IMG/VR virus record: IMGVR_UViG_2029527006_000005
Strand: one strand, 5' to 3'
DNA from: a virus
Lineage: Duplodnaviria; Heunggongvirae; Uroviricota; Caudoviricetes
DNA: 64,000 nucleotides
Numbering within the stretch: position 1 is the first letter of the stretch; each line of letters begins with the position of its first letter. The translations under genes were made by a program, and so were the position numbers. Shown one piece after another: positions 5,336-35,450 of the stretch. Under the pieces are notes generated by a model. It saw only the letters and a list, made by a program, of their open reading frames with translations, did no database searches and had not been told where the DNA came from.

Positions 5336-6487
5336 TTAGAAGTCTTCTAACACATCTTTCATGTACTTCAACATCACTTCTTTGTAATCCACAGGTTTAT
5401 TGTTGTATAACGCAAAAGCAATACCTTGATGATTCAAATCCTTTGGCAAGTTACGCTGTACTACTAAAGCGAACTCTTTACGATCAAGATCTTTATAAGC
5501 ACTTACAAAATCCTGCACAGTCTGTTGTAAGTTATTATAGGTTGAAAATACTAATTTTTCCATACGCTCAATCTTATCTAAGCAGTACTGATCAGTACTA
5601 AACATCTGACGTAAATCATCCGATCCACCTGTTAGTACTGCTTCGTATAGACGGGAATCAACGTTAATACTATCCTTAGTGAAGTGCAATGCACAGTACC
5701 ACTCGGTCTTAATTTTAAACATTGTACCATCTTTTAATTGAACGACAAAACCTTCGATACCCGTCATTTTATAAACAGACTCAATCGAATCTTTTAAAGT
5801 ATGACACATTGGGAAGGTTTTGTCAATATCCCCGCTGTTAGAAAATACTGATTTATTATATAGTACCGGGAAACGTTTTTTCAACGCTTCACCTGTTAGT
5901 AGCTCACCAGTGCTGCGGTGACGCAAGTTTAGTACAGTCAACTCATCTTTCTGATATGGTAACACAATCCTGAACTCAGGGGAAGTGTACTCCAAATTCA
6001 CCGTGTACATCGCTAGGTCAGCTTCAATGATTGCCTGATGGAAATCATCATCTGCGTGAATTAACGCCGTAGAATTGATTGCATGGTCGCTGTGCATAGA
6101 TGTATGAGACTTGGTACGGATCACTCCGTCATTATCAGTGAAAGTACTGATAATCGAACCATCACGCTTATCCATAGCAATTGTAATTTCCGAAGATAGA
6201 ACATCCTTCGGGAACATCACTAATGGATTCTCATAAGCGTTAAAGAATTTCTGTGGTGTACGACACGCGACACGGATTAAAGAACCGTCCGGGCGAATCT
6301 CGAACATTGTACCACGACACTCTAATGCCGATGGCTCTAAGAAATCCGAATAGGAAGCAAGACGGTACGCAAAGGTACGATACAAGCCACCAGCAATTGA
6401 TTGTGTGTCACGGAAAAAGAATGCTTCGTTCTTTTCACATAACTGTAGTAACTCATTGTACAACGTAATGATTGAAGGGGTTGCCAT
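5336..6487 (-). CDS. rnlA: RNA ligase 1 (T4 RnlA family)
   Basis: ECRG and KFFN motifs, adenylation motif KRDGS, EGFV, FKIK; close to pseT; start set at MATPS. Confidence 0.92.
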   Translation of the reverse strand: MATPSIITLYNELLQLCEKNEAFFFRDTQSIAGGLYRTFAYRLASYSDFLEPSALECRGTMFEIRPDGSLIRVACRTPQKFFNAYENPLVMFPKDVLSSEITIAMDKRDGSIISTFTDNDGVIRTKSHTSMHSDHAINSTALIHADDDFHQAIIEADLAMYTVNLEYTSPEFRIVLPYQKDELTVLNLRHRSTGELLTGEALKKRFPVLYNKSVFSNSGDIDKTFPMCHTLKDSIESVYKMTGIEGFVVQLKDGTMFKIKTEWYCALHFTKDSINVDSRLYEAVLTGGSDDLRQMFSTDQYCLDKIERMEKLVFSTYNNLQQTVQDFVSAYKDLDRKEFALVVQRNLPKDLNHQGIAFALYNNKPVDYKEVMLKYMKDVLEDF

Positions 6488-7088
6488 GATTTTCTGCCTC
6501 AAATAGTAGTTCTAATGCATTTTCATACATAGAATCGATAATGTTTAATGATAGTTCTGCTGGAATGAACTCAGACAAATCCAAATCCAAGTGCTGGTAA
6601 TCCAAATCAAAACCAATACTGTGCTTTCTAGCAATCTTTTCCAAATAGTCATACACTTCACACGCAGGTTTGATGTACTGGTGATCTGGAAGATTGTACA
6701 ACATAGTCATTTGGAAATGCTCATCTTCTGCAATATTACGATCCACTTCTAGTGATTCGTCCATGTACACAATTTTAGTACTGTGCATAGGTAGATACAT
6801 CCACGAAGGATATAAAATAGTTCTACCACCATAGTTTTGTAGATTACCGAATAATGAAGGTTGGTTGGTTTCTCTGTCTTCTAACATCAATCCAATTCCA
6901 TTAGTACCTTTCTTTGAAGTCAAGTACATTTCATAGCGACTTAATGGATGAGATAATCCTACAAAACATTCAGAGAACATGTTTTTGTACTTTTTAGATT
7001 CTTTTAGTTCAAATACATCAACAGCAGTATGGAACCGCCATTGATTGACTAATTCAAAAAAGAACAACATAGATTGTATATTTTTCAT
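6453..7088 (-). CDS. FQ-motif paralogue family protein
   Basis: EDEHFQMTMLY. Confidence 0.7.
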   Translation of the reverse strand: MKNIQSMLFFFELVNQWRFHTAVDVFELKESKKYKNMFSECFVGLSHPLSRYEMYLTSKKGTNGIGLMLEDRETNQPSLFGNLQNYGGRTILYPSWMYLPMHSTKIVYMDESLEVDRNIAEDEHFQMTMLYNLPDHQYIKPACEVYDYLEKIARKHSIGFDLDYQHLDLDLSEFIPAELSLNIIDSMYENALELLFEAENHGNPFNHYVVQ

Positions 7089-7606
7089 ATTAATCCTTCT
7101 GGAATATCTAGGTTATCAAAATTCTCTTCCATGCCAATATCAATCATTGTGTTGGACATGTAGCATATTTTAGCTAAAGATGGACAGTACTTAGCAATAG
7201 CATCGTACATCTCTTGAGTACCGAAATTATAGATAGTATTCATTTGGAATACATACTCTTCATCAAAAGAATCCATCTTACGAGTTTCAATTGGCATCTC
7301 ATCAAAGTACGACCCAACATCTACTAAATGTGTAATGTCCACCATTTCACCTAATTTACCATACACAGTAAGTTTAGGATAGTATGTTTCATCTAATCGT
7401 ATTCTACTGTTCGGTGCTTTTGGTGAACTGCGAGAACAATCATAGATAGTAATAATCTCTCTACAAGTTTCTAAATTGTGAATACCAACTTTATAATGCG
7501 TAACATACGCTCGGTATGGACCAATTTGGTTATCAAAGAAATTGGATTCATTTTTATTACGATCATAAAGTTGTATTAAGTTAAACACTACTTCAACTAT
7601 ATTCAT
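7085..7606 (-). CDS. FQ-motif paralogue family protein
   Basis: EEYVFQMNTIY. Confidence 0.7.
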   Translation of the reverse strand: MNIVEVVFNLIQLYDRNKNESNFFDNQIGPYRAYVTHYKVGIHNLETCREIITIYDCSRSSPKAPNSRIRLDETYYPKLTVYGKLGEMVDITHLVDVGSYFDEMPIETRKMDSFDEEYVFQMNTIYNFGTQEMYDAIAKYCPSLAKICYMSNTMIDIGMEENFDNLDIPEGLI

Positions 7607-8217
7607 TTGGTCATCTCCAAAAACTCATAGGACAAGTTAGGCATGATACGTTGAGGTAGATTCCCAGAAACGAAACATTTGTGTTGCATCATCATTGGGC
7701 GAATCTTTTGTGCAAATTCGTAAAACGCCATAAGCTCATCAAGCTCTGGAAGAGAGCTAATGGCGGTACTCAACATGAAGTGGTTACCTTCTTCACATAC
7801 TTCATGGAAGGAATATTCCTCACATTCTTCACCAGCCCTCATCTTTATACGAACAAGTATATCATCTAAAAACTTTGGATTCAAGTGATATTTGATCATA
7901 CCACCCAAGCCAATGTAAATTTCCGATCTTTCTTTTGAGTCGTTTTTGAAATTCGATATCTCAAATCCATAATCTAACGTTTTATCACTGGCTGACCAAC
8001 CAGAGTACTCATACTCTTCAGTACGGTTACCACGTACATCATATGTACTCTCTGCGACATGAGAATGAGTCATTCCAAAGTCTTCATACTGTCTACGTTG
8101 CTTTACCTTTTTGTCTCTTAGATTGTACAAAGAATCAAAAGCATTAAGTACACTACGCTGTAAAGTTTTATAATCCCGCATATAAATTACTCCAGTACTC
8201 AAAGTCACCACCCTCAT
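7603..8217 (-). CDS. FQ-motif paralogue family protein (variant)
   Basis: EEGNHFMLSTAI. Confidence 0.65.
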   Translation of the reverse strand: MRVVTLSTGVIYMRDYKTLQRSVLNAFDSLYNLRDKKVKQRRQYEDFGMTHSHVAESTYDVRGNRTEEYEYSGWSASDKTLDYGFEISNFKNDSKERSEIYIGLGGMIKYHLNPKFLDDILVRIKMRAGEECEEYSFHEVCEEGNHFMLSTAISSLPELDELMAFYEFAQKIRPMMMQHKCFVSGNLPQRIMPNLSYEFLEMTK

Positions 8218-8701
8218 TTACAATCTTACGAACTAACGGAATAGGGTTTAACAACTTACCACGATAAGATCCATTAAATGAAATACCGTTTTCAATACAT
8301 TCAGTCATAGCTTGATATACTTGTTGAATTTCTTCAATATCAGTACTCAATTCAGCAAGTAAACTGTACTGAAAATATCCTTCCTCAGTGAGCAAATCTT
8401 CAGTACTAACTGTCATGTTGGTTCCACCAGTAACATACAAGGTAGTGCGGAAGTCTGTATTGTTGTTAGTAATGTACGCTCTTTTGGACGTAATGGCAAT
8501 ATAGTTACGTTCCATATAATGATTAAATGAACGATTCATCTTCATAGAGTAGCCATCGTTATACACTTCTAATTGACGACTATTCCTTTCCCATTTCCAC
8601 AACATATGGTTGTACTTGTACGCAATATCAAAATCGGAAACTTCTTCTTCTAACTCTTTGAATAGTTTAATTAAAGTACGGATATTTTCAAGATAATACA
8701 T
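8168..8701 (-). CDS. FQ-motif paralogue family protein
   Basis: EEGYFQYSLLA. Confidence 0.7.
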   Translation of the reverse strand: MYYLENIRTLIKLFKELEEEVSDFDIAYKYNHMLWKWERNSRQLEVYNDGYSMKMNRSFNHYMERNYIAITSKRAYITNNNTDFRTTLYVTGGTNMTVSTEDLLTEEGYFQYSLLAELSTDIEEIQQVYQAMTECIENGISFNGSYRGKLLNPIPLVRKIVNEGGDFEYWSNLYAGL

Positions 8702-8707
8702 AGAACC

Positions 8708-9013
8708 TCACTTGTTCCAATCACTTCCCATAGATTCAATCTCTTCAGCGATATCATAGATCTCACTTAGAGTTGCTTTTACCCAAAACACAGTTGAACT
8801 GGAAATACTTTCATATCTGTGATTTCCAGAATACAAGAATACAGTATCTTGAGTACATTCTACAGTACTGTCACCAATGGTAACATGGTCTAATAAAGTA
8901 TATTCTTTACCTTCTGGTTTTTTGTACACAGAAGTGTTGTGATCAATATTAATAGCTTCTAGTTGAAACCACACATCATTTGGAACTGCTCTGATATTAT
9001 AACTCATATTCAC
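8708..9013 (-). CDS. hypothetical protein
   Basis: 101 aa ORF. Confidence 0.6.
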   Translation of the reverse strand: MNMSYNIRAVPNDVWFQLEAINIDHNTSVYKKPEGKEYTLLDHVTIGDSTVECTQDTVFLYSGNHRYESISSSTVFWVKATLSEIYDIAEEIESMGSDWNK

Positions 9014-9020
9014 CTTCTAT

Positions 9021-9050
9021 TAAAAAGAGTACACGACATGTGTCGTGTAC
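9021..9050 (-). terminator. intrinsic terminator
   Basis: GTACACGACA-c-atGTCGTGTAC stem followed by TCTTTTT on the minus strand. Confidence 0.6.
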
Positions 9051-9057
9051 ATAATGA

Positions 9058-9789
9058 CTACATTAATGAAACCATTCCGAGAAGAATACTTTCATCAGGT
9101 CTTTGATATTTTTGTTTTTCTATTTTGAAGTAGAATGAATCAGCATCTTGTAAATCATAACGCTTTTTCAAACAACGAGTATAAGTACTGTTATTTGGAT
9201 GTACCCATTCGTACACCTGAACACCATCCTCATTATACCCATCAATACTTCTTCTGTTCCCTTCGTGCTTGTGGAAGTTCTTACTACGTTCAGTAAAAGT
9301 CTTTTCAGCAACACTATCAGGGAAATCGTATATGTATGGAACTTCTGTTAGTCTGAAGTAAAAGTATTTCTCATCTTCAGAGTAACCTAGAAGAACAGTT
9401 TCAGTACTAGTCACATTGTACTTCTCTTTACTCTTCTGTTCGTTTTCCATAATATCTTGTAGTACTTCTTTTAAAACAAGATCTGGTTCAGCATTAGGAT
9501 TGGATACCCCTGATACACGTCTTTCGATAATGAAATCAGTGAATCTCCTTTCTTCTTCTACTTCGCCATTCATATACATACCCACAAACTTGTCTTTATA
9601 TGACTTTACTGAGTACTGCATACCCTGTACTTCACTAAACACATCAGCCAATAGGTTAGCTTGTCCACACTGTACCCCTGACGAAGCCGCCGCAGTTGCG
9701 TATTCTGCCATGATTGGGTTTAGTGCTTGGAAACTAGCCATGTTTAACTCGTTTGCGAGTTCTTGTGCAAATTTAATTCGATCTAACAT
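9058..9789 (-). CDS. hypothetical protein, possible PD-(D/E)xK-like nuclease
   Basis: 243 aa; AE...LADV-x8-YSVKS spacing recalls restriction-endonuclease folds (weak). Confidence 0.4.
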   Translation of the reverse strand: MLDRIKFAQELANELNMASFQALNPIMAEYATAAASSGVQCGQANLLADVFSEVQGMQYSVKSYKDKFVGMYMNGEVEEERRFTDFIIERRVSGVSNPNAEPDLVLKEVLQDIMENEQKSKEKYNVTSTETVLLGYSEDEKYFYFRLTEVPYIYDFPDSVAEKTFTERSKNFHKHEGNRRSIDGYNEDGVQVYEWVHPNNSTYTRCLKKRYDLQDADSFYFKIEKQKYQRPDESILLGMVSLM

Positions 9790-9821
9790 CGTTCACATTC
9801 CTTGTGATTAAATCTGCTTTA

Positions 9822-10454
9822 CTACTCCTTAATTCCATATTTTTGTCTTAAATCTTCTATCTCTAAATCCACAATACATCCCGAACTCTTCATCAGTACT
9901 TTATCGACATGTTCACTTAGTAGTAAAAGATGTAATGCATTCATCGCAATGACGTATAAGAATTCTGGAGTTTCGGTATCTATCATACTGTGCTGAAACA
10001 TTGATGCTTCATCAGCTAAATCTATAGTATTAGTACGACCTTTACTATCTTTGATAATAAATTCAGTACTTATATTTTCTATTTTAATAGTCCATTCGTT
10101 GGGACTAAAATATCCAAGGGATATTAAATTAATTCTTGGAGAACGGACCATACCCAAATGGAATGTCTCTAGACTTGCTAGATGTTCAGTATTACCATGC
10201 ATATAAGTACCAATACGCGGCGTAGTACTTTGTACGTAAAATGTTTCCGAAGCAATTTCACCATCAATACGATGGAAGGTTTTATGCGTTTTAGCATCTC
10301 TGGAATTCATCAATGCTAATGGATAGTTTATGTGGTTGAATGGTAGTTCAGGAAGTTCATCAGCTTTCATGCGACTAATCTCCATCATGTACTCAATGTT
10401 TTTTATCATTCTTCCAAAGTTAAGTCTAGCTGCTTGTTCTTGCGTCATATTCAT
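9822..10454 (-). CDS. FQ-motif paralogue family protein
   Basis: DEASMFQHSMI; N-terminus MTQEQA similar to its neighbour. Confidence 0.7.
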   Translation of the reverse strand: MNMTQEQAARLNFGRMIKNIEYMMEISRMKADELPELPFNHINYPLALMNSRDAKTHKTFHRIDGEIASETFYVQSTTPRIGTYMHGNTEHLASLETFHLGMVRSPRINLISLGYFSPNEWTIKIENISTEFIIKDSKGRTNTIDLADEASMFQHSMIDTETPEFLYVIAMNALHLLLLSEHVDKVLMKSSGCIVDLEIEDLRQKYGIKE

Positions 10455-11040
10455 CCCTCAAATTACGGATACCTAAATCGAATTTTAAAAAATTACACTT
10501 CAGGGTAAGTTTATTCACATTGTGAGATTTATGCAATAACTTTCTCATATTCTTTGCAATATCTAAAAGATACAACGGCACACCACCGACTACTGAGTAC
10601 TGAAAAACTTCTGCTTCATCATTAATATTGACAGTAGATGTTAATATATTATTAGCAGTTGAGATATGCTTGAGAACATAATGTGGTGACTCTTCTTCGA
10701 TAATGATATACAAATCCCGACTACATTCATTATAGATAATATAATTATCAAGTTCAAAGCGACTATCTTTATATGCAGTAGTCATATAACACACAGATGG
10801 GTTGTACATACTATCTTTTGGTTTGAAATTGACGTAGATGCTGGGTTCGGTTGCGTACATATAAGTTCTGCCTAATTTCGCTGAATCTTCCATTACCATC
10901 TGGTCTTCTATGATATTATAATTTGCGTTTTTAAACCCTAGATCCATCATATGGATACCTTTAGCACTCATCTCTAGCATAAAGTCCATAGAATTGATAA
11001 TATTAGTTGAATTCAAAAGGGTTGCTTCTTCTTGTGTCAT
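10426..11040 (-). CDS. FQ-motif paralogue family protein
   Basis: DEAEVFQYSVV; N-terminus MTQEEA. Confidence 0.7.
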   Translation of the reverse strand: MTQEEATLLNSTNIINSMDFMLEMSAKGIHMMDLGFKNANYNIIEDQMVMEDSAKLGRTYMYATEPSIYVNFKPKDSMYNPSVCYMTTAYKDSRFELDNYIIYNECSRDLYIIIEEESPHYVLKHISTANNILTSTVNINDEAEVFQYSVVGGVPLYLLDIAKNMRKLLHKSHNVNKLTLKCNFLKFDLGIRNLRDEYDARTSS

Positions 11041-11239: not shown

Positions 11240-11246
11240 TTCGCAA

Positions 11247-11462
11247 TCATCTTCCATCTTTAATCCTCGTTATTGATTCTTCAAGTAGATGCCAGAAGAA
11301 GCAACCACCGAATACCACAATGATACAACTAATGGCGTACAAGATATAAAAAGAACTAACTGGAATAATAGAAAGTACTACAAGGTAGAAGAACATAATC
11401 AAACAAATAACACAGATTGCAATTCTTCTAATAGCTATGCGAAGTCTATCTGATATACTCAT
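11247..11462 (-). CDS. small membrane protein
   Basis: two hydrophobic helices. Confidence 0.6.
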   Translation of the reverse strand: MSISDRLRIAIRRIAICVICLIMFFYLVVLSIIPVSSFYILYAISCIIVVFGGCFFWHLLEESITRIKDGR

Positions 11463-12070: not shown

Positions 12071-12072
12071 AA

Positions 12073-12690: not shown

Positions 12691-12699
12691 TGTTGCTCC

Positions 12700-13228: not shown

Positions 13229-13229
13229 A

Positions 13230-22005: not shown

Positions 22006-22008
22006 TGG

Positions 22009-23005: not shown

Positions 23006-23006
23006 T

Positions 23007-27048: not shown

Positions 27049-27060
27049 GATACACCGCCT
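27033..27060 (-). terminator. intrinsic terminator
   Basis: AGGCGGTGTATC-GT-GATACACTGCCT-TTTCTTTT on the minus strand. Confidence 0.65.
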
Positions 27061-27069
27061 GTGTCAACA

Positions 27070-28217: not shown

Positions 28218-28346
28218 CTTAATCTCCAACTTAAACGCAATCTCATAGCACCGTCGCCCGGTCGCCCCCCGATTACACTTTATTTGCACTTTGTGAAGCG
28301 AAAATTTTTTTACGCCCCGGCACGCATATCCTCCGGGGGGTAACAT

Positions 28347-28982
28347 TTATTTATGCTTTGTAATTTCCATCATTTCGGCTAATTTCTTGTTCACATTCAT
28401 AATAGCTGTATCTAAACGTTTAATCTGTAACAAACTCTGTCCGTAATAAATCATTTCACCTAACTTGTACTCCGCATCACGTAAACCCATCCACGTAGCA
28501 GCACCATCCGTCAAACGACTATCAATACACATCTGTGTCTGGAATAATGTCTCATCTGGTAGCTCCATAATATCTAAACCATCAGGCAATTGTACTGCAC
28601 TGTTCTCGTACTTAACTTGTGCAAACAAAGGGGTATTACGCATTACGTACTGAATGTAATTACTATCTTCTGTACTTTTAATAACTGAATGTGTTGGAAT
28701 TGGCTTCAATGGGATAATGGGCATGTTACGATTTAAACTAACGTACATTGAATTACCTTTACCAACAGATAAATCTATTTCGTCTGATTTTCCCGTTCCT
28801 GCACTAAAAAAATACTTCTCTTCTTCAAACAATGCCTGTACTTCATTGTAGGTCACTCCACGTGCTCTGTGCTCACGAATCAACCACAACCCAGCAGCAA
28901 TGTGCGGTAAATATTCATTACCGATTATGTACTGATCACGGAACTTCTTACCCTCTTTACTCACTTTTAATTTTAATGACAT
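28347..28982 (-). CDS. FQ-motif paralogue family protein
   Basis: DETLFQTQMCI. Confidence 0.7.
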   Translation of the reverse strand: MSLKLKVSKEGKKFRDQYIIGNEYLPHIAAGLWLIREHRARGVTYNEVQALFEEEKYFFSAGTGKSDEIDLSVGKGNSMYVSLNRNMPIIPLKPIPTHSVIKSTEDSNYIQYVMRNTPLFAQVKYENSAVQLPDGLDIMELPDETLFQTQMCIDSRLTDGAATWMGLRDAEYKLGEMIYYGQSLLQIKRLDTAIMNVNKKLAEMMEITKHK

Positions 28983-29649
28983 ATTCTTCTAATGCCTCAA
29001 TAATTTCATCGTAAGGAATCACTATAACATTATCCACCGCGATTGTCAATACTCCCGTAAGGATATCACACGTATTAACTAAATCATCGCCCTTCTCAAA
29101 GGTACGCTTGATTTGATCAATACCCATCGAAAAATCACTCAACACCTTATCAGCATCTAATGCCATATCAGGCTCGCAACTCACATTGTGCTGGAATAAC
29201 TCGCATTCTAACGCATCGTAACCATCCTCAAAGGGATTCTCTAAACTGAATACCCTTGGCCTACCCTTCTGTACTACGGCCCCTGCTGACACCATAGCGA
29301 TATCCTGAAGCGATTTATAGGAACTCTGCCACGATAACCAATGACCATCTGTACTGATAATCGGTACTGCATTCTCGAATTTACTATAATGACACGCTCT
29401 GAACTCAGCAATGGGTACAAATAACATACCACTCATTGTCGGTACTTCAATCTGTAATGAAGCAACCCATACATCATTTGTGTGATCAGGGTGGTAATAC
29501 TTCTTCGGTACTCGTATACGAAAACCTTGCGGTACTGAACCTACTACTTTACGATCAATACAACGTGGCATTGCCTCCATTATCTGTACTAACCTTTGTA
29601 ATTTAATACTGTTCAAAGCCTGTGTATCCATTGTATCCATTGAATCCAT
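28957..29649 (-). CDS. FQ-motif paralogue family protein
   Basis: ECELFQHNVS. Confidence 0.7.
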   Translation of the reverse strand: MDSMDTMDTQALNSIKLQRLVQIMEAMPRCIDRKVVGSVPQGFRIRVPKKYYHPDHTNDVWVASLQIEVPTMSGMLFVPIAEFRACHYSKFENAVPIISTDGHWLSWQSSYKSLQDIAMVSAGAVVQKGRPRVFSLENPFEDGYDALECELFQHNVSCEPDMALDADKVLSDFSMGIDQIKRTFEKGDDLVNTCDILTGVLTIAVDNVIVIPYDEIIEALEEYVIKIKSE

Positions 29650-30247
29650 ACTGTTCTCTCATCAATTTGATAATGTTCAATACGCCCTCACAATGGTTCA
29701 ACGGATCTGCACCTAACCACATTTGAATGTTAGGTAACTTCCGTCTACGCCACTCGAACGCAAACATCAAAGCATTAATAACTTCAACCTTCTGTACTAA
29801 ACTCTCTTGGAACAAAAACATCTCCGTATCTGGATCTGTCATGTCCATCATTTCGTACTCAAAATATATATCACTAATGATACTTTTACGGAATATAATT
29901 CTATCACTATCTTTGTTTAATGATATATGACTCGTTACTGTATCATTTAATAATACTACGTTTAACTCTATGTTTGTGGTATAATCCCAATTGTACTTTA
30001 AAACCGTTTTATTAACACACGCTATATGAAAAAACTGCTTTTTATCTTTATAATTATAATTGAAAAAACCACCATCCCTTTCAAAACCTACAACAACATC
30101 ATTCTCAAAATTCCATGACTGTACATTGAATACTTTTTGTTGTATGTCTTTATTCTTCAGGTACTCATTCGTGATACCAATTAATGCCATCGCTTCCTCT
30201 AGGTAATCAATGCATTGACGCACCTCTTGTACTGTTAATATGTTCAT
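29603..30247 (-). CDS. FQ-motif paralogue family protein
   Basis: EMFLFQESLVQ. Confidence 0.7.
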   Translation of the reverse strand: MNILTVQEVRQCIDYLEEAMALIGITNEYLKNKDIQQKVFNVQSWNFENDVVVGFERDGGFFNYNYKDKKQFFHIACVNKTVLKYNWDYTTNIELNVVLLNDTVTSHISLNKDSDRIIFRKSIISDIYFEYEMMDMTDPDTEMFLFQESLVQKVEVINALMFAFEWRRRKLPNIQMWLGADPLNHCEGVLNIIKLMREQYGFNGYNGYTGFEQY

Positions 30248-30813
30248 AACTTTGGCTCCCCAAGCTGTACGTATAATTCATTGAAGCGTTTATTCTGGTA
30301 ATATTCTATGGTACTCTCCATGCTCTCTATTACACGATCTAATACATTTAAGGACCACACGTGTACAAAAGCAAACCTAGGCATCTTTAATTCATGTAAT
30401 GCGTACATAATACAAAACTCATCGTACAACTTATCATGTATTAAACTCTGCTGAAATAAAAATGATTCCTTATCGTTGAAATCTAATTCATATTTCGTAC
30501 CATCTTCATCATCGATATCCCGCACGAATGCTGTACTATTTGGATTGTAAATTATTACATTGTGCTGATTACCCTTGATAATTTTCTTATCCGAAATGTA
30601 ATTGTAATCCCACATATCCCCCCAAGCGATCTTGTGATCGATAACAGGGTCACTACCCTGATACCACACGCAATCACCCCTATCATGAAAAGCTGATACC
30701 ATCAAAGGACTTCTGCATATTGGTGTATCACATGTGTATGTGTACAACTGCTCCAATAAGGAATCAATCTTGCATATTTTCTGTGCGTACTCTATGTGCC
30801 AATCTTGCATCAA
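30244..30813 (-). CDS. FQ-motif paralogue family protein
   Basis: ESFLFQQSLIH. Confidence 0.7.
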   Translation of the reverse strand: MMQDWHIEYAQKICKIDSLLEQLYTYTCDTPICRSPLMVSAFHDRGDCVWYQGSDPVIDHKIAWGDMWDYNYISDKKIIKGNQHNVIIYNPNSTAFVRDIDDEDGTKYELDFNDKESFLFQQSLIHDKLYDEFCIMYALHELKMPRFAFVHVWSLNVLDRVIESMESTIEYYQNKRFNELYVQLGEPKL

Positions 30814-31366
30814 CTTCCCCTATGAATTCTGCTGTACTGTTCTGTACATATTCTAAAATCTCTAATAAACCCTGTAATGAATATGCATTAAAACGTAATG
30901 TGAAATTGTGCTTGAACTCATTCTCTTTAAGATACAACCAAAATCCTACATCAATTTCTTGTTCTGTGCTTTGTACTAAACTCTGCTGGAATAGCCATTC
31001 CTCGGTCAAATTCTTACGCTCATGGAATGCATGATGTATACGTATTGTATCACCTGTATCAAACGAAAAACGTAAAGCTACTCCTTTCGCCCTGTGAGGT
31101 TCTCCCATAATGAATGAAACACTATTACACAAGGACTTTGCAAGGACTCTACTCTCTTCATCGGTGGGATGATTGAAATATTCTAATGCACCTCTGCTTA
31201 TTGTAAAACATTTTGGTACTTGCATCTTAATATCATTACGCATAGCTTCGCAATTCTTAATTACAAATAATGTGTACGTATCATATAATGTCTTTAAGGC
31301 TTCCATCGCCTGTCCGTACTCGTGTCTCTCGATCATAAATCTTCTCCAAATCAGCAAGAAATACAT
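30764..31366 (-). CDS. FQ-motif paralogue family protein
   Basis: EEWLFQQSLVQ. Confidence 0.7.
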   Translation of the reverse strand: MYFLLIWRRFMIERHEYGQAMEALKTLYDTYTLFVIKNCEAMRNDIKMQVPKCFTISRGALEYFNHPTDEESRVLAKSLCNSVSFIMGEPHRAKGVALRFSFDTGDTIRIHHAFHERKNLTEEWLFQQSLVQSTEQEIDVGFWLYLKENEFKHNFTLRFNAYSLQGLLEILEYVQNSTAEFIGEVDARLAHRVRTENMQD

Positions 31367-31868
31367 CTACATCAAACCATAAATTCTGATGGAAGGTTCC
31401 CAATATCCCAGCATTATGCATAGCGGATACAACGTACTGACAATGTACAACCTCTGGTTTCGCTACGAATTGCAACTGCTCATACATAGCCTCATCCATC
31501 TCTTCTGTACTAAGGATATCATGAACTGAAAAGGTATTGCAAGAACTTTCGTACAAAAAATCCATCGTGTTTTCAATGTTTACACTACAATACGTACAAT
31601 TCTGTACATCTCTGTAATTAGCAAAATTCGTATCGTCTGTTGTACTAATCAATGTGTATGTATTCAAAAGATTCTTTTTGTTATAATACAACATGTGCTC
31701 AAGGTCACCATCTAAATGTAAACTCATCTCGATTTTTATTGTACCACATGAACTAAAATATGTACCCTTACCATCGTAATTTACAATAAATGCTTTGTAC
31801 TTCTCTAACCATTCAAAGCACTTTAGGATTTTATTTGTGTAATTTGTTGTGTACTCAAATGTGTACAT
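31281..31868 (-). CDS. FQ-motif paralogue family protein (YEQ variant)
   Basis: DEAMYEQLQFV. Confidence 0.65.
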   Translation of the reverse strand: MYTFEYTTNYTNKILKCFEWLEKYKAFIVNYDGKGTYFSSCGTIKIEMSLHLDGDLEHMLYYNKKNLLNTYTLISTTDDTNFANYRDVQNCTYCSVNIENTMDFLYESSCNTFSVHDILSTEEMDEAMYEQLQFVAKPEVVHCQYVVSAMHNAGILGTFHQNLWFDVDVFLADLEKIYDRETRVRTGDGSLKDII

Positions 31869-32401
31869 AGCACCTCCTGGAACAACGTAATTAACTCTCT
31901 TGGACTGTGTACTAAATTCTCATAATACACCAACTGCCTCTCTTGACTATCCAAAATACTCATGAGAATAATACAATTCACTACATCTTTAGTGTGTACA
32001 AATTCTAATTGATCATACATCTCTTGGGTTATCTCTGTACTTTTAAGATACTGATAACATGATAACTCTCTGTGCATTATACCTATGTCAAATGTTGTAT
32101 TGCACTTCTGATGGAAATTGTAAAAACGATATCCACCTTCTCCATTGTCAACCCAACTGCCATCAGTAGGATCTAAATTGTAAAAACCAATAGTACAAAT
32201 TTCGTACTGGTCTTTACTTAAACGCCATGCATTACCCTCAACGCCATGTACTAAATTCCGTAACTCAAAACCATTTGTTAAACCAATAGGCTTACCCCAG
32301 CACGAATATGTTCTAGTACTGTAAACTAAATCCATCAATTCAATTATATCTTGTGCATATTGCTTTACTTCTTCAAATGTCTCTAACTCAATTAGTTTCA
32401 T
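31823..32401 (-). CDS. FQ-motif paralogue family protein (YDQ variant)
   Basis: TQEMYDQLEFV. Confidence 0.65.
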   Translation of the reverse strand: MKLIELETFEEVKQYAQDIIELMDLVYSTRTYSCWGKPIGLTNGFELRNLVHGVEGNAWRLSKDQYEICTIGFYNLDPTDGSWVDNGEGGYRFYNFHQKCNTTFDIGIMHRELSCYQYLKSTEITQEMYDQLEFVHTKDVVNCIILMSILDSQERQLVYYENLVHSPRELITLFQEVLCTHLSTQQITQIKS

Positions 32402-32915
32402 ATAAAGCTAATCCTTCATCAATATTAATATATTCTAAATTGACTTTAAATGGCGTAGTACATACCTTCATCAACTCCAAATATAATTCTAATGTATCAT
32501 ATGCATGATTTGGTAGTACTAAACTCTGCTGGAATAATACGTCCTCAGTATAAATGCTAGGATCTTTAATTGTAAATTTCGTTTCATCTGTAAAACCTGA
32601 TATACTTGTAATGTACTCATCTTTTCCACCAGTAGGAGAGAAACAAATAATATCTGTCTTTTCAGTCATCCATCTCTCTTGTGAACAAGTATTCCAATAA
32701 TCACCTGCACAAATAACAAATGCATGATCTTGCATATGACATGATACATTAAGACCATCAGGTGTATCGTACTCATCATGTGCATCATCAAACAATTCTG
32801 AACTATGTCTGTATCCATAATGATCCATGTAAGTACTAGGATCAGCTAGAAAGTACTTCACTAATTTTGCTAACTTCCTAGCTAAGATGGTAGTTTCTGA
32901 TTCCGTATTTTTCAT
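32388..32915 (-). CDS. FQ-motif paralogue family protein
   Basis: EDVLFQQSLVL. Confidence 0.7.
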   Translation of the reverse strand: MKNTESETTILARKLAKLVKYFLADPSTYMDHYGYRHSSELFDDAHDEYDTPDGLNVSCHMQDHAFVICAGDYWNTCSQERWMTEKTDIICFSPTGGKDEYITSISGFTDETKFTIKDPSIYTEDVLFQQSLVLPNHAYDTLELYLELMKVCTTPFKVNLEYINIDEGLALYETN

Positions 32916-33462
32916 CTAATACCTCATATAATTCTTCTATCTTAGGACTGAACCACACCCTAAAAGATGTATCGTATTCTTTAAAGTACTGTACAAATTG
33001 TACTACATTTAAAATAGTATCGCTATACACAGTACTGAATTGGAATTCTTCATCTTCATTGAGTAGGTTGTGTTGTAATGTACTAACTGTCTGACCTTCA
33101 CCATCAACCTCAATATCTACTTCATCTGCCCTCTTATGATTGATGTAGATAAAATCAGTATAGTAATCATCATTGTAAAAAGTTGGTGGTGCACTAACTC
33201 TTTCATGTGTATTCTCTAGACAGAACATGTATTGATCTTTCTGTATCTCAAGTTCATTAGTACTAACAAGATACATCTCTTGATTGTTCTCATGAACATG
33301 CATAGAAAAGTCTTTGTTAATGTAATAAATTTCATAATGCTGATAGATAGATATGCATTTCATCTTGTGCTTATCTTGCATAAAACTCTTCATGAAAGCA
33401 ATTACATTTTCTACCTTAAGACATAACTCTTTGTTAGTCCACTTTGACTTGTAATAGTTCAT
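32878..33462 (-). CDS. FQ-motif paralogue family protein
   Basis: EDEEFQFSTVY. Confidence 0.7.
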   Translation of the reverse strand: MNYYKSKWTNKELCLKVENVIAFMKSFMQDKHKMKCISIYQHYEIYYINKDFSMHVHENNQEMYLVSTNELEIQKDQYMFCLENTHERVSAPPTFYNDDYYTDFIYINHKRADEVDIEVDGEGQTVSTLQHNLLNEDEEFQFSTVYSDTILNVVQFVQYFKEYDTSFRVWFSPKIEELYEVLDEKYGIRNYHLS

Positions 33463-33978
33463 CTATTCTCCTACTAAGTCTCTGTCCTTGGGGAATGTTA
33501 AAGCATGTTTACATTCAGCCATAATCGTTGGTAATAATTCAATATTGTACTCTAAGCGTGTTATACCATATAACTCATCTTTCCTACTTCTGATATATGA
33601 AAGAGTTAACAAGTCCCTATTAAGTACTGGTGTGTACAAAAGAGAGTACTGGAAGTGTTCAGCTTCAGAATGAAGATCATCGTATAACTCAATACCAGTA
33701 CATCCATCATCATAATCAAGATGATAAAATTCTGATTGGTCCAAAAACATAACCACACGTTGTCCAGTGTTGTAAGACATTTGTAAATCTATAGGTCTAG
33801 TACTGTAAGCAAATATACGGGTACGTTCATCACTATTATAATAGAAAAAAGATTTACCAGAATCATCTGCATGGAGAGTACTACTAATATAAGGATTACT
33901 ATTAGCTATTCCTAGATAGAACCATTTGATCATCTTGAAGATATCTTGAGCGTACTTTAAATCTTCATCGTAAGTCAT
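33463..33978 (-). CDS. FQ-motif paralogue family protein
   Basis: EAEHFQYSLLY; N-terminal DLKYAQDI. Confidence 0.7.
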   Translation of the reverse strand: MTYDEDLKYAQDIFKMIKWFYLGIANSNPYISSTLHADDSGKSFFYYNSDERTRIFAYSTRPIDLQMSYNTGQRVVMFLDQSEFYHLDYDDGCTGIELYDDLHSEAEHFQYSLLYTPVLNRDLLTLSYIRSRKDELYGITRLEYNIELLPTIMAECKHALTFPKDRDLVGE

Positions 33979-34445
33979 AGTTTAACCTCATCTAGTCTTT
34001 TAAGTACTTCATCAATAAATTCTGTATGTACACTGAAGTACTTGTATGGGGCCATTGGAACCGAATTAAGTGTCTTAACAATGACAGCAGCTTTCAATAC
34101 TTCATCTTGTAGTAATAGTTGTCGTTGGAAGTACCAACCTTCATCGATTGGATCATCGCTGACTTCATAGGTGTTGGGATTGTACATTACCTTGAAGTAT
34201 TTTGTGTGCGGTGCATAGATTATCCGTGAAGATCCAATAAAGGTTGAACCTTCGTCTTCACGTTCTTCTAAGTATGAGAATACAGGATTAAACCCATCAC
34301 CTAATTGTATAGTGTATTCATTACAATCTTTATTCATTTTGAAGTTTTGAATGCCACGTGCTTTTAAAAGGTCACCTGATATTAGTGCTTCACGGATGCG
34401 TAGAACCTTGTTTGCGTATTCTAAATCTTCTTCATATTGAGTCAT
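33975..34445 (-). CDS. FQ-motif paralogue family protein
   Basis: DEGWYFQRQLL; N-terminal DLEYANKVLRIREALISG. Confidence 0.7.
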   Translation of the reverse strand: MTQYEEDLEYANKVLRIREALISGDLLKARGIQNFKMNKDCNEYTIQLGDGFNPVFSYLEEREDEGSTFIGSSRIIYAPHTKYFKVMYNPNTYEVSDDPIDEGWYFQRQLLLQDEVLKAAVIVKTLNSVPMAPYKYFSVHTEFIDEVLKRLDEVKL

Positions 34446-34926
34446 CAGTGCCGTCCAGTTTAGCTAATAGAATGGGAACATAGCACCAGAAGAGTTTGAA
34501 GCGATTAAACTTTGGCATTGCTTCTGTGTGCAAATGGTTCATCACAGTCTTGGACCGAACCTGTTCCAAAGAGTACAGCATCGTGTCTTGGAAGTGTTGA
34601 GCTTCATCGTATCCGGGGAGTAAATGATAGACGCAATGCTGTTTATCAAATACCGTTGTATCTACAACCCTAGAAAGGCTAGTGATGTGAACAAGTGATT
34701 TATCAGTAATAATAGAACCAGTATTTTCATAATCATCTTTCTGGGTAATGTCACCAATCACCCTGCGAGCACCATCTTTGAAAATATGGAATATCCTTCC
34801 CTTCCCGTAGATAGAGTTAGTTAATCCGTAATGCACACCGTGACCTTCATTAAGTTCCCCGGATAGTAATGCATTACGTATACGCATTATATCTTTTGCA
34901 TATTGTAAGTCATCGTGGTAGCTCAT
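34432..34926 (-). CDS. FQ-motif paralogue family protein
   Basis: DEAQHFQDTMLYS; N-terminal DLQYAKDIMRIRNALLSG. Confidence 0.7.
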   Translation of the reverse strand: MSYHDDLQYAKDIMRIRNALLSGELNEGHGVHYGLTNSIYGKGRIFHIFKDGARRVIGDITQKDDYENTGSIITDKSLVHITSLSRVVDTTVFDKQHCVYHLLPGYDEAQHFQDTMLYSLEQVRSKTVMNHLHTEAMPKFNRFKLFWCYVPILLAKLDGTDDSI

Positions 34927-35450
34927 TCAATTTCTCCCAAGAGTTTACGCATGTTTTGTGCGTTCCTGAAGTATAGCTTGAAGTTATTGTATTTCTCCAT
35001 TGGGTTCGCGTATAAGAGATTGGCAACCACAATGAAATGCAATTGTCTATCAGAGTACAACAAACTGTCTTGGAAGTATTGCCCCTCGTCGTAATTCGGG
35101 TTTAGCTTGAATGAACGAGTGCCATCCACCGTAAGTATACCATCTGCTGAATCTTGATGGAAATCAATCGTTTTAGAAGTAATTAATGTTCCAAGTTTGT
35201 TTTCTGATTTGTAATGCAAATGTCCCAATGTATATGGCCTTTGACCGAACTCAGTATAGAACCGTTTACCTTTAATAGTATTGAATTGTGTGCGATCCAT
35301 ATCAATCTTACAAGTAACCTTTTGGGCTTGACCAATGGAACCATCAATTAAACCATCCCTAAGACGAAGAATATATTGTGCATATTTTAAAGATTCAAGA
35401 TATTTGTCCATTGTTCCCCCAGAATTTATGTCCAATAAGTATAGCACCAA
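34923..35450 (-). CDS. FQ-motif paralogue family protein
   Basis: DEGQYFQDSLLYS; N-terminal LKYAQYILRLRDGLIDG. Confidence 0.7.
   Translation of the reverse strand: MVLYLLDINSGGTMDKYLESLKYAQYILRLRDGLIDGSIGQAQKVTCKIDMDRTQFNTIKGKRFYTEFGQRPYTLGHLHYKSENKLGTLITSKTIDFHQDSADGILTVDGTRSFKLNPNYDEGQYFQDSLLYSDRQLHFIVVANLLYANPMEKYNNFKLYFRNAQNMRKLLGEIE

What the first reader, a model, noticed from the sequence alone, without database searches (positions are those of the whole stretch)
6453..35450. About 32 highly diverged genes sharing little beyond a short acidic-F-Q-x-S-phi motif
Seen: 6 ORFs at 6.4-11 kb and 26 at 20-35.5 kb, of about 145-235 aa, mostly look unrelated in their N-terminal two-thirds. Each carries E/D-E-x-phi-F-Q-x-(S/T)-(L/T/M)-phi or a close variant in the C-terminal part (e.g. 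EDEHFQLSLIH, EEWLFQQSLVQ, EAEHFQYSLLY). Neighbouring genes are most alike, implying tandem expansion. A variant motif is also attached to a MORN-like protein (14294) and occurs twice in 15518. Inference: a modular adaptor repertoire in which variable domains bind different host targets and the conserved motif docks on one common partner (scaffold, protease or packaging factor), by analogy with F-box-type systems.
Basis: partly seen in the sequence, partly recalled or inferred. Interest (0 to 1): 0.82.

Follow-up and report, generated by a model that had tools for sequence, protein, structure and literature searches.

The report
Diverged early-gene family in jumbo phage
A giant phage of enterobacteria devotes about 20 kb next to its terminal repeat to roughly 25-30 fast-evolving copies of one small protein with no recognisable known fold, and the shared "EE..FQ.SL" signature is a built-in helix of that fold, not a portable docking tag, so this is a real, uncharacterised viral multigene family whose function is still unknown.

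Summary
The motif occurs in 23 of 36 array ORFs, against 2 of 75 elsewhere and 0.2 in shuffles.

Profile searches place 22 window ORFs firmly in one family. Six more are probable, four are possible, and four embedded ORFs are unrelated.

The family is not a set of unrelated domains carrying a tag.
- AlphaFold with a 72-sequence family alignment gives one compact domain (pLDDT 93.6).
- The layout is an N-terminal helix, a seven-strand beta region, then a helical C-terminal part.
- The motif is the first C-terminal helix and by far the most conserved segment.
- The beta region is hypervariable and rich in insertions.

No PDB fold, Pfam family or solved relative matches. Only uncharacterised proteins of RaK2/121Q-type jumbo phages do.

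The array is collinear with Salmonella phage Munch, but members are about 34% identical against about 79% for neighbouring genes. Recent dN/dS is about 0.13.

The array starts just inside the terminal repeat behind a sigma-70 consensus promoter. Members are essentially absent from two relatives' particle proteomes.

My best reading is an early, non-structural, host-directed multigene family. Function is inferred, not shown.

The scan's earlier notes on this array come from this same genome only.

The parts
20070..35411 (-). Main array: 28 tightly packed, mostly overlapping ORFs (18 firm, 4 probable, 3 possible members, 3 unrelated)
   Evidence: Gene-to-gene gaps run from -86 to +21 nt. Collinear with Munch 21.3-36.2 kb by reciprocal best hits.
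6453..11040 (-). Second block: 8 ORFs (4 firm, 2 probable, 1 possible, 1 unrelated), next to Rnl1 RNA ligase and PNKP
   Evidence: Collinear with Munch 44.9-49.0 kb.
35438..35466 (-). Sigma-70 consensus promoter (TTGACA-17-TATACT with TG) directly upstream of the first array gene
   Evidence: It lies inside the TTG-extended ORF, so the gene probably starts at the ATG at 35411. The profile alignment begins at residue 14.
34923..35411 (-). Firm member; motif DEGQYFQDSLLY
   Evidence: Seed of the iterative search. A5 profile E = 1.1e-38, though it is in the training set.
34432..34926 (-). Firm member and the modelled protein; motif DEAQHFQDTMLY
   Evidence: AlphaFold pLDDT 93.6, pTM 0.89. E = 2.3e-40.
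34570..34614 (-). Motif segment of the modelled member (residues 105-119): helix 108-115 plus M-L-Y-S
   Evidence: Mean conservation is 2.26 bits, against 0.69 in the beta region.
33975..34445 (-). Firm member; DEGWYFQRQLLL
   Evidence: E = 2.7e-40. BLASTP links it to 34432 and 34923.
33463..33978 (-). Firm member; SEAEHFQYSLLY
   Evidence: E = 2.8e-29. The first AlphaFold model is low confidence but has the same order of elements.
32878..33462 (-). Firm member; NEDEEFQFSTVY
   Evidence: E = 4.6e-24.
32388..32915 (-). Firm member; TEDVLFQQSLVL
   Evidence: E = 7.1e-21.
31823..32401 (-). Firm member with variant motif (M-Y-D-Q-L-E-F)
   Evidence: E = 9.9e-21. N-terminal part alone gives z = 9.8 in the leave-out test.
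31281..31868 (-). Firm member with variant motif (M-Y-E-Q-L-Q-F)
   Evidence: E = 6.1e-22.
30764..31366 (-). Firm member; TEEWLFQQSLVQ
   Evidence: E = 1.1e-22.
30244..30813 (-). Firm member; KESFLFQQSLIH
   Evidence: E = 2.8e-28.
29603..30247 (-). Firm member; TEMFLFQESLVQ
   Evidence: E = 1.7e-20. Against its 68%-identical orthologue, 39 of 74 beta positions differ but only 3 of 41 C-helix positions.
28957..29649 (-). Possible member; ECELFQHNVSC
   Evidence: hhalign P = 0.031, aligned at the motif columns.
28347..28982 (-). Possible member; PDETLFQTQMCI
   Evidence: hhalign P = 0.061, aligned at the motif columns.
27603..28217 (-). Firm member; RGELFQKGLVY. The true start is probably the ATG at 28217.
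   Evidence: E = 2e-16. The database copy P0013 is 204 aa.
27070..27624 (-). Firm member; TDDELFQRMVVD
   Evidence: E = 4.8e-9. N-terminal part alone gives z = 6.0.
26422..27048 (-). Embedded ORF with no evidence of membership
   Evidence: hhalign P = 0.68. A terminator-like hairpin lies at 27060-27035.
25778..26422 (-). Firm member; MEELEFQHSTVT
   Evidence: E = 3.3e-6 against the A5 profile, and it is not in that training set.
25260..25778 (-). Firm member; GEGEIFQLSTIY
   Evidence: E = 3.5e-20.
24755..25267 (-). Possible member (E-E-L-F-F-L-S)
   Evidence: hhalign P = 0.027 over 61 columns at the motif position.
24207..24785 (-). Firm member; TEEEIFQLSTLA
   Evidence: E = 4.8e-16. BLASTP links it to 6453.
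23542..24246 (-). Probable member; REAEFQALLVG
   Evidence: hhalign P = 0.008.
23007..23597 (-). Probable member (E-S-E-L-F-M-H-S-T)
   Evidence: hhalign P = 9.8e-5 over 38 columns.
22598..23005 (-). Embedded unrelated gene (phrog_11632), slower evolving
   Evidence: hhalign P = 0.34. 65% identical to Munch and 52% to EJP2. PHROG match.
22009..22647 (-). Firm member; SEEEYFQQSLIR
   Evidence: E = 2.1e-17.
21436..22005 (-). Firm member; TEDEHFQLSLIH
   Evidence: E = 3.5e-20. Munch orthologue is 36% identical. Against its 69%-identical orthologue, 32 of 64 beta positions differ and 0 of 16 motif positions.
20964..21446 (-). Embedded unrelated gene (phrog_15293)
   Evidence: hhalign P = 0.29. 69% identical to Munch.
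20555..20995 (-). Probable member; EIDFFQYTLLN
   Evidence: hhalign P = 0.009.
20070..20555 (-). Probable member; GGELFQYSTVH. Its fENko-Kae01 orthologue is the only array gene flagged by LC-MS/MS.
   Evidence: hhalign P = 8.5e-4. ENKO_077 annotation.
10426..11040 (-). Firm member; DEAEVFQYSVVG
   Evidence: E = 2.3e-12. BLASTP pair with 9822.
9822..10454 (-). Firm member; DEASMFQHSMID
   Evidence: E = 4e-12.
9058..9789 (-). Embedded unrelated gene (phrog_16105), 95% identical to Munch
8708..9013 (-). Possible short member
   Evidence: hhalign P = 0.069, aligned at the motif columns.
8168..8701 (-). Firm member; TEEGYFQYSLLA
   Evidence: E = 3.8e-18.
7603..8217 (-). Probable member (E-E-G-N-H-F-M-L-S-T)
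   Evidence: hhalign P = 8.8e-4.
7085..7606 (-). Probable member; DEEYVFQMNTIY
   Evidence: hhalign P = 1.8e-4.
6453..7088 (-). Firm member; AEDEHFQMTMLY
   Evidence: E = 4.6e-14. phrog_32531 at E = 4e-12.
14294..14857 (-). Separate conserved gene (phrog_16210) with a motif-like AEDEVFNIFMLY near its C-terminus; relation to the family is unproven
   Evidence: hhalign P = 0.016 at the motif columns. No MORN match in Pfam. 80% identical to Munch.

Best explanation
The two blocks encode one ancient, tandemly expanded multigene family of small (about 150-215 aa), mostly acidic, soluble single-domain proteins. The family is specific to RaK2/121Q/Munch-type jumbo phages.

All members share one alpha/beta fold with no detectable relative among solved structures. 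It consists of:
- a conserved N-terminal helix;
- a hypervariable, insertion-rich seven-strand antiparallel beta region;
- a conserved helical C-terminal part.

The [TSD]-E-E-x-[YH]-F-Q-x-S-L-[LI]-Y signature is the first helix of the C-terminal part plus the turn that follows it. I read it as the keystone where the helical base meets the sheet. F, L, L/I and Y would pack into the core. The invariant E, Q and S would form either a buried polar network or a small common ligand or partner site.

The genes are the first unique genes inside the terminal repeat. They sit behind host-type sigma-70 promoters, are packed as overlapping operon-like units, and are not virion components in relatives. I therefore infer they are made early by host RNA polymerase and act inside the cell.

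Their beta regions diverge far faster than their helical base and than neighbouring genes, while recent dN/dS stays low. I infer that each paralogue uses its variable sheet or loops to engage a different host molecule, for takeover or counter-defence. The closest analogy is the terminal multigene families of large eukaryotic DNA viruses.

Shown: family, fold prediction, conservation pattern, synteny, rates.
Inferred: burial of the motif, early timing, host-directed function.
For: Family:
- An iterative HMM search from one seed gathers 62 full-length members in three phages.
- A window-only profile finds 23, 31 and (with A5) 42 matches in Munch, EJP2 and phAPEC6.
- The same kind of profile finds only 59 hits among 1.84 billion representatives. 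All real ones are 116-212 aa and aligned over nearly the full length.

Fold:
- AlphaFold gives pLDDT 93.6 and pTM 0.89 for one domain.
- BFVD models of distant members match at TM 0.5-0.74.
- PDB Foldseek finds nothing below E = 0.1, and the exhaustive VIA search peaks at Z = 3.2.
- There are no Pfam or PDB sequence matches. The family is split over at least 13 PHROGs of unknown function.

Motif as an integral helix:
- DSSP places a helix at 108-115.
- E108 is present in 69 of 72 sequences, F112 in 68, Q113 in 72 and S115 in 62. Only positions 110 and 114 vary.
- No insertions occur in the motif, against 14 per sequence in the beta region.

Rates:
- Family members are 34% identical (median) to their Munch orthologues, against 79% for flanking genes (Mann-Whitney p = 6e-7).
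- In 53-92% identical orthologue pairs, 32% of beta positions differ, against 19-20% in the helices and 10% in the motif.
- Munch versus fENko-Kae01 dN/dS is 0.127, so the genes are constrained.

Context:
- The array starts 86 nt after the annotated DTR in fENko-Kae01 and just after the 21,296-bp DTR of Munch (PMC8273493).
- A consensus promoter lies at 35466-35438.
- Genes overlap.
- None of the roughly 42 phAPEC6 matches is among that phage's 62 virion proteins. One of 27 array genes is flagged by LC-MS/MS in fENko-Kae01.
- Neighbouring genes include Rnl1, PNKP and Dam.
Against: - No coordinates were available, so burial of the motif is inferred from helix periodicity and conservation only.
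- A fully invariant Gln plus near-invariant Glu and Ser is more than packing usually demands. It could mark a catalytic or partner-binding site.
- No expression data exist for this phage. The sigma-70 scan as a whole is not enriched over shuffles (85 found, 81 expected).
- Recent dN/dS (0.13) shows no positive selection. The fast long-term divergence could reflect weak constraint on the beta region or recombination rather than an arms race: dS is also 2.3-fold higher in the array.
- The proteome evidence comes from relatives, not from this phage.
- No host target, toxicity or defence phenotype is known for any member.
Confidence: 0.6

Rival explanations
1. Adaptor repertoire. The conserved helix and its invariant E/Q/S form a surface patch that binds one common partner, either a host machine or a phage protein such as the embedded conserved genes 20964 or 22598. 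The variable beta face recruits different targets to that partner.
For: - The conserved-versus-variable split is strong.
- Polar residues are invariant in a family with about 13% mean identity.
- Two slowly evolving unrelated genes sit inside the array in all relatives examined.
Against: - The motif sits in an ordered helix in which six of eight positions are conserved and which continues into a hydrophobic L-[LI]-Y. That leaves little exposed variable surface typical of a docking site.
- No adaptor-type domain appears in Pfam.
- No partner has been identified, and no multimer test was possible.
Confidence: 0.17
2. Enzyme or small-ligand-binding family. E, Q, S and the aromatic residues form a catalytic or nucleotide/second-messenger-binding pocket between the helical base and the sheet. 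Paralogues differ in substrate or ligand, for example signalling molecules of host defence systems.
For: - The Glu/Gln/Ser/Phe set is invariant or nearly so.
- The two-layer helix-on-sheet architecture could hold a pocket.
- Neighbouring genes counter host nucleases and restriction (Rnl1, PNKP, Dam).
Against: - There is no similarity to any enzyme or ligand-binding fold.
- About 30 paralogues is many for an enzyme family in one phage.
- Residues outside the motif that could line a pocket are not conserved.
Confidence: 0.13
3. Packaged internal or ejection proteins, or protease substrates. The motif would be a capsid-targeting or cleavage signal, like T4 internal proteins or phiKZ inner-body paralogues.
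For: - 121Q and phAPEC6 have an inner body (PMC5646251, PMC7247149).
- Paralogous head-protein families exist in other jumbo phages (my own knowledge).
- One array orthologue, ENKO_077, was detected by LC-MS/MS.
Against: - No family match is among the 62 phAPEC6 virion proteins, and 26 of 27 fENko-Kae01 array genes are not flagged.
- The motif is internal and helical.
- T4-type prohead proteases cleave after Glu in L/I-x-E contexts (established knowledge), not at F-Q.
- The array has an early-type position and promoter.
Confidence: 0.04
4. Genome filler. The array consists of duplicated genes kept only to fill an enlarged capsid (the ratchet idea of Hua et al. 2017), drifting under little selection, and the motif is merely what is needed for folding.
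For: [quoted passage not shown]
- Divergence is extreme.
Against: - dN/dS is 0.127, similar to flanking genes at 0.10.
- Most array ORFs have a reciprocal-best-hit orthologue in Munch, in conserved order, despite about 34% identity.
- No pseudogenes were seen.
- Polar residues are invariant.
Confidence: 0.06

Closest known systems
Terminal multigene families of large eukaryotic DNA viruses (ASFV MGF360/505/110; poxvirus Bcl-2-like and other terminal families). Comparison from my own knowledge.
   Same: - Tandem arrays of strongly diverged paralogues lie next to the terminal repeats.
- One fold persists while pairwise identity is nearly gone.
- The proteins are non-structural.
- They diverge much faster than core genes.
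   Different: - There is no sequence or fold relation.
- The host is a bacterium.
- No function in host range or immune evasion has been shown here.
- The family has one sharply conserved helix motif.
[quoted passage not shown]
   Same: - Both are very large paralogue arrays in a jumbo phage.
- The 121Q remark probably refers to this same family. The 121Q-like phAPEC6 has 42 profile matches, far more than its roughly 10 RCC1-type genes.
   Different: - The published remark is one sentence, with no family definition, motif, fold or function.
- The members are in fact not 'very similar'.
- The phage G family is a zinc ribbon with a plausible DNA-binding role.
Terminal-repeat-associated host-takeover or pre-early gene blocks (SPO1 genes 37-60; T5 first-step-transfer genes; T7 gene 0.3). 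Comparison from my own knowledge.
   Same: - The genes sit at or next to the terminal repeat.
- They have strong host-type promoters.
- They encode small non-structural proteins that are often acidic.
   Different: - Those blocks hold unrelated genes, not about 30 paralogues of one fold.
- Timing and DNA-entry polarity are not known for this phage.
F-box / SCF substrate adaptors
   Same: A conserved element combined with a variable, possibly target-binding part, in many paralogues.
   Different: - An F-box is a separate domain of about 45 residues joined to a distinct substrate-binding domain, and it binds Skp1.
- Here there is one domain, the conserved element is an internal helix, no F-box profile matches, and bacteria have no SCF.

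Membership tests
F-box-type modular adaptor | A recognisable F-box (or other adaptor) domain by profile | tested here: not met
   No F-box or adaptor family appeared among Pfam matches of 72 members at E <= 1.
F-box-type modular adaptor | Two-module architecture: a docking module plus a separate, structurally unrelated target-binding domain | tested here: not met
   AlphaFold gives a single compact domain, pTM 0.89. Profile alignments span the full length in nearly all members.
F-box-type modular adaptor | A shared binding partner for the conserved element | not testable with these tools
   No multimer prediction or interaction data were available.
Short linear docking motif (SLiM) | Lies in a disordered or flexible, exposed segment and works independently of its context | tested here: not met
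   - The motif is helix 108-115, with block pLDDT 96.
- It always lies at 0.57-0.78 of protein length.
- Flanking positions are conserved and there are no insertions.
Protease site of TEV/3C type (E-x-x-Y-x-Q|S/G) | Gln directly followed by Ser or Gly in an extended, accessible segment | tested here: not met
   The consensus is F-Q-x-S, with a variable residue after Q, and it lies inside a helix.
Packaged internal-head or inner-body paralogue families (T4 IP, phiKZ type) | Detected in purified virions | tested here: not met
   This was tested in relatives only. None of about 42 matches is among the 62 phAPEC6 virion proteins. One of 27 array genes is flagged in fENko-Kae01.
Known structural superfamilies (START/Bet v 1, lipocalin, NTF2-like and others) | Significant structural alignment covering the domain | tested here: inconclusive
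   The best Foldseek PDB hit has E = 0.17 and TM about 0.2. The best VIA-wide hit has Z = 3.2, rmsd 4.8 A and 88 aligned residues.
Any Pfam, NCBI-style or solved-protein family by sequence | Profile match above threshold | tested here: not met
   - No Pfam family is shared by more than 2 of 72 members, and the best of those is E = 0.068.
- The family profile finds 0 PDB sequences at E <= 10.
- The only PHROG matches are families of unknown function.
Viral terminal multigene family (as a kind, not by homology) | A tandem array beside the terminal repeat, one fold, extreme divergence, and purifying selection on each copy | tested here: met
Viral terminal multigene family (as a kind, not by homology) | A role in host range or counter-defence | not testable with these tools
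   This needs genetics or biochemistry.

The most novel reading that the evidence does not exclude
The family is a phage-encoded repertoire of binders built on a previously unseen fold. A constant helical base, locked by the E-E-x-x-F-Q-x-S helix, presents a rapidly diversifying beta face. Each of the roughly 30 early-expressed paralogues neutralises or hijacks a different host defence or housekeeping factor. This would be a bacterial-virus counterpart of the terminal multigene families of ASFV and poxviruses. The invariant E/Q/S might additionally couple all of them to one shared host machine.
Probability: 0.3. Interest if true: 0.85.

Novelty: new variant of a known kind. Interest (0 to 1): 0.62.

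Why it matters
Roughly 20 kb, about 5% of a 362-kb phage genome, is invested in one uncharacterised family. The same is true across the RaK2/121Q/Munch clade.

The family is absent from Pfam and split across at least 13 PHROGs. It has no detectable structural relative. Published work gives it no more than one passing sentence.

Defining it as one fold with a constant base and a hypervariable face turns about 30 'hypothetical proteins' per genome into a testable system. Open questions include which host factors or defence systems each copy addresses, and whether large phages, like large eukaryotic viruses, keep terminal multigene families for host interaction. The fold itself may also be of interest as a natural diversifiable scaffold.

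Tried and rejected
Searches and tools that gave nothing useful:
- BLASTP all-against-all links only four small groups.
- The search for related loci in viral contigs with one member found nothing.
- The search for homologous proteins is word-limited and gave only 2 and 7 hits.
- No whole genome is held for this window.
- The ESM Atlas gave no usable lead. Capsid-family feature hits share few features, and the Atlas's own model is poor.
- Pfam, the PDB sequence profile and the PDB fold searches were all negative.

Structure prediction limits:
I did not try another route.
- The first AlphaFold run, with 21 window paralogues only, gave pLDDT 59. It was superseded.

A false hit:
- P0004 (773 aa, 14 matched stretches) is a translated tandem repeat containing F-Q-H-P-L-I-L, not a fused relative.

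Ideas considered and rejected:
- The TEV-site resemblance fails on Q-x-S spacing and the helical context.
- DUF956 and Roc hits are single, sub-threshold matches.
- 'MORN-like' for 14294 has no Pfam support.
- Positive selection was not detected between Munch and fENko-Kae01, which are too close and give w about 0.13.

A method limit:
- Local hhalign comparisons capture only the motif plus the next helix, even for a true member. They grade doubtful ORFs but do not prove full-length homology.

Full report
WHAT THE WINDOW IS

The window belongs to a jumbo phage. Its own proteins are recorded on a contig of 361,872 bp.

At the DNA level only 284 nt match anything in the phage collection: 81% identity to Salmonella phages Munch, 7t3, SE_PL and PHA46 and to Klebsiella phage fENko-Kae01. 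At the protein level the region is collinear with those phages and, more loosely, with the Asteriusvirus EJP2.

In all of these records the genes in question are annotated 'hypothetical protein'.

THE OBSERVATION

The minus strand carries 8 ORFs at 6453-11040 and 28 at 20070-35450. Most overlap their neighbour by a few to some tens of bases.

A loose version of the motif is present in 23 of these 36 ORFs. It is present in 2 of 75 other ORFs of the window. Shuffled versions of the same proteins give 0.21 on average and at most 2. The motif always sits at 57-78% of the protein length.

Pairwise BLASTP sees almost nothing. It finds four small groups, three of them made of adjacent genes.

ONE FAMILY

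An iterative profile search started from a single member (34923) converges on 62 proteins in this window, Munch and EJP2. The alignments cover essentially the whole profile.

Profiles find many matches in relatives:
- A profile of window members alone finds 23 matches in Munch and 31 in EJP2.
- The later 72-sequence profile finds 42 matches in phAPEC6.

Against 1.84 billion representative proteins the window-only profile finds only 59 hits at E <= 1e-3. One, P0004, is a translated tandem repeat. The rest are 116-212 aa, aligned end to end, and nearly all carry [TSD]-E-E-x-[YH]-F-Q-x-S-L-[LI]-Y.

Grading of the 36 array ORFs:
- Firm (22 ORFs). With the 72-sequence profile, 22 window ORFs score E < 1e-5. 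One of these, 25778, was not in the training set.
- Probable (6 ORFs). Profile-profile comparison of each doubtful ORF, together with its Munch or EJP2 orthologues where it has one, against the family gives P < 0.01 for 7085, 7603, 20070, 20555, 23007 and 23542.
- Possible (4 ORFs). The same comparison gives P = 0.03-0.07 for 8708, 24755, 28347 and 28957.
- Unrelated (4 ORFs). 9058, 20964, 22598 and 26422 give P > 0.29, like four unrelated control genes.

All the probable and possible ORFs align at the motif columns.

With the motif cut out and close relatives excluded from the profile, the N-terminal part of 5 of 20 members and the C-terminal part of 7 of 20 still beat all 200 shuffles. About 0.1 would be expected by chance. 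Homology outside the motif is therefore real but faint.

ONE FOLD, AND WHERE THE MOTIF SITS

AlphaFold with only the 21 window paralogues gave a poor model, pLDDT 59. With 72 family sequences (window proteins plus database hits) the model of 34432-34926 reaches pLDDT 93.6 and pTM 0.89. It is a single domain:
- helix 3-22;
- seven strands between residues 32 and 101;
- helix 108-115;
- helix 120-134;
- strand 142-146;
- helix 147-158.

The low-confidence first model has the same order of elements.

In BFVD the model matches, over its whole length, independently predicted structures of uncharacterised proteins. These come from GAP32, 121Q, SP27, RaK2, Yersinia fHe-Yen9-03/04, Erwinia pEa_SNUABM_47 and Serratia BF. 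TM scores reach 0.74 at 9-28% identity.

No relative was found among known structures or families:
- Foldseek against the PDB gives nothing below E = 0.17.
- The exhaustive VIA search peaks at Z = 3.2, well under the Z of 7-8 that the tool reports as typical for unmatched models.
- The family profile hits no PDB sequence at E <= 10.
- No Pfam family recurs among the 72 members.
- PHROGs scatters the family over at least 13 families, all of unknown function.

Per-column conservation on the model:

| Segment | Mean conservation (bits) | Inserted residues per sequence |
|---|---|---|
| Motif, 105-119 | 2.26 | 0 |
| N-terminal helix | 1.35 | 1.4 |
| Helix 120-134 | 1.09 | 0 |
| C-terminal remainder, 135-158 | 1.08 | 2.8 |
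| Beta region | 0.69 | about 14 |

Within the 72 sequences, E108 is present in 69, F112 in 68, Q113 in all 72 and S115 in 62.

In helix 108-115 only positions 110 and 114 are free to vary. Positions 108, 111, 112, 115 and 116 form a continuous conserved stripe, and the helix runs into L-[LI]-Y.

This is what one expects of a central helix packed on more than one side. It is not what one expects of a linear docking peptide. I could not obtain coordinates, so burial remains an inference.

EVOLUTION

Gene by gene, the array is collinear with Munch. Nearly every ORF is a reciprocal best hit.

Long-term divergence:
- Family members are 27-60% identical to their Munch orthologues, median 34%.
- Interspersed and flanking non-family genes have a median of 79%, and up to 95% (Mann-Whitney p = 6e-7).
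- Even within the genus Asteriusvirus, an EJP2 member has no tblastn match in phAPEC6 at E <= 1e-5.

Where the changes fall, in eleven orthologue pairs with a closer relative (53-92% identity):
- 32% of beta-region positions and 30% of insert positions differ.
- 19-20% of helix positions differ.
- 10% of motif positions differ.
- In two pairs, half of the beta positions differ while the helices are nearly unchanged.

Recent selection, between the very close phages Munch and fENko-Kae01:
- Pooled dN/dS is 0.127 for family members and 0.10 for flanking genes. The copies are therefore under purifying selection and are not decaying.
- Both dN and dS are 2-3 times higher in the array. That could reflect exchange of diverged alleles.
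- Positive selection was not demonstrated.

CONTEXT AND LIKELY TIMING

In fENko-Kae01 the annotated direct terminal repeat ends at 19,736 and the first array gene starts at 19,822. In Munch the repeat is 21,296 bp and the array starts at about 21.3 kb.

In the window the orthologue of a gene near the inner end of the Munch repeat lies at 35909-36340. The array is therefore the first unique block inside the repeat, and it is read away from the repeat.

Promoter signals:
- A near-perfect sigma-70 promoter with an extended -10 lies at 35466-35438, just upstream of the probable start of the first gene at 35411.
- Other sites matching 11-12 of 12 consensus positions lie at 29049, 26495, 23858 and 21406.
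- The scan as a whole is not enriched over shuffles.

For the related phage CBB, the authors proposed that RpoD-type promoters followed by many short hypothetical genes mark the early, host-takeover region (PMC5259590).

Proteome data from relatives:
- In phAPEC6 the family matches fall on gp407c-gp466c, gp054c, gp083c-093c and gp119c-134c. None is among the 62 virion proteins found by mass spectrometry (PMC7247149).
- In fENko-Kae01 only the last array gene, ENKO_077, is flagged as seen by LC-MS/MS. Its window orthologue is 20070.

Other features:
- The proteins are mostly acidic, with mean pI 5.2 against 6.6 for other ORFs.
- The neighbours of the second block and of the gap between blocks include T4-type RNA ligase 1, PNKP, Dam methylase, a cytidylyltransferase-like protein and an HD-domain protein. 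phAPEC6's authors relate this kind of gene set to countering host anticodon nucleases and restriction.

INTERPRETATION

Shown:
- a real, statistically overwhelming motif;
- one family of about 25-30 genes in this window;
- one confidently predicted fold with no detectable known relative;
- a conserved helical base and a hypervariable beta region;
- ancient synteny with very fast divergence;
- present-day purifying selection.

Inferred:
- The motif is a core or functional-site helix.
- The genes are early and non-structural.
- The variable face gives each copy its own, probably host-derived, target.

Its intuition of a constant element plus a variable recognition part survives in modified form.

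A common partner or ligand at the invariant E/Q/S remains possible (about 0.17 for a partner, about 0.13 for catalysis or a ligand). Packaging and 'filler' readings are unlikely.

COMPARISON WITH WHAT IS KNOWN

The closest analogues in kind are the terminal multigene families of ASFV and poxviruses, and the large lineage-specific expansions noted in jumbo phages. The latter include about 35 zinc ribbons in phage G (PMC7824862).

[quoted passage not shown] A 2026 review repeats the remark. This is probably the same array, but no paper I could find defines the family, its motif, its fold or its function.

I therefore rate it a new variant of a known kind: a virus terminal multigene family, here in a phage and on an apparently new fold.

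LIMITS

- No coordinates or multimer predictions were available.
- No whole genome is held for the window.
- Proteins of annotated phage records could not be used for folding.
- The scan's earlier notes on this array come from this same genome only.

Noticed in passing
window 56213-64000 (+): At least seven tandem ORFs of about 310-400 aa sit on the opposite strand. Three were tested and all have RCC1-like repeats (PF25390, RCC1). Relatives annotate these as 'DNA condensation protein', and several are virion proteins in phAPEC6 (gp003-010, gp549, gp551). This is a second, separate paralogue array in the same window.
   Followed up: partly
window 22598-23005 (-) and 20964-21446 (-): Two unrelated genes (phrog_11632 and phrog_15293, unknown function) are embedded in the array and conserved in position. 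They evolve much more slowly than the family: 65-69% identical to Munch and 39-52% to EJP2. They are candidates for a partner or regulator of the family. No Pfam or PDB match was found.
   Followed up: partly
window 14294-14857 (-): This is a conserved gene (phrog_16210, 80% identical to Munch) with AEDEVFNIFMLY near its C-terminus. The string aligns at the family's motif columns (hhalign P = 0.016). Its fENko-Kae01 orthologue ENKO_086 is flagged as detected by LC-MS/MS. There is no MORN match in Pfam.
   Followed up: partly
window 3670-6502 (-), 11459-14286 (-): A repair and anti-restriction neighbourhood: PNKP (kinase plus HAD phosphatase), T4-type RNA ligase 1, an HD-domain protein, a cytidylyltransferase-like protein and a Dam methyltransferase.
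   Followed up: partly
window 27603-28346 (-) and 34923-35450 (-): The longest-ORF starts are probably wrong. The database copy of 27603 starts at the Met 43 codons in (28217). The profile alignment of 34923 starts at residue 14 (ATG at 35411), downstream of the promoter at 35466-35438.
   Followed up: partly
Munch (L001) versus fENko-Kae01 (L061), array region: Synonymous divergence in the array (dS 0.064) is about 2.3 times that of the adjacent non-family genes (0.028), at the same dN/dS. This may indicate recombinational exchange of array alleles between phages that infect Salmonella and Klebsiella.
   Followed up: no
phAPEC6 MK817115 50-71 kb (L060): A further set of shorter ORFs (about 120-150 aa, gp083c-093c and gp119c-134c) gives weak matches to the central and motif part of the family profile. 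This may be a truncated or derived sub-family elsewhere in Asteriusvirus genomes.
   Followed up: no
database protein P0004 (773 aa): This repeat protein, made of about 14 copies of a 53-residue unit containing F-Q-H-P-L-I-L, scores E = 4e-21 against the family profile. It is a translated tandem DNA repeat and a false positive. It would contaminate automated family building.
   Followed up: yes
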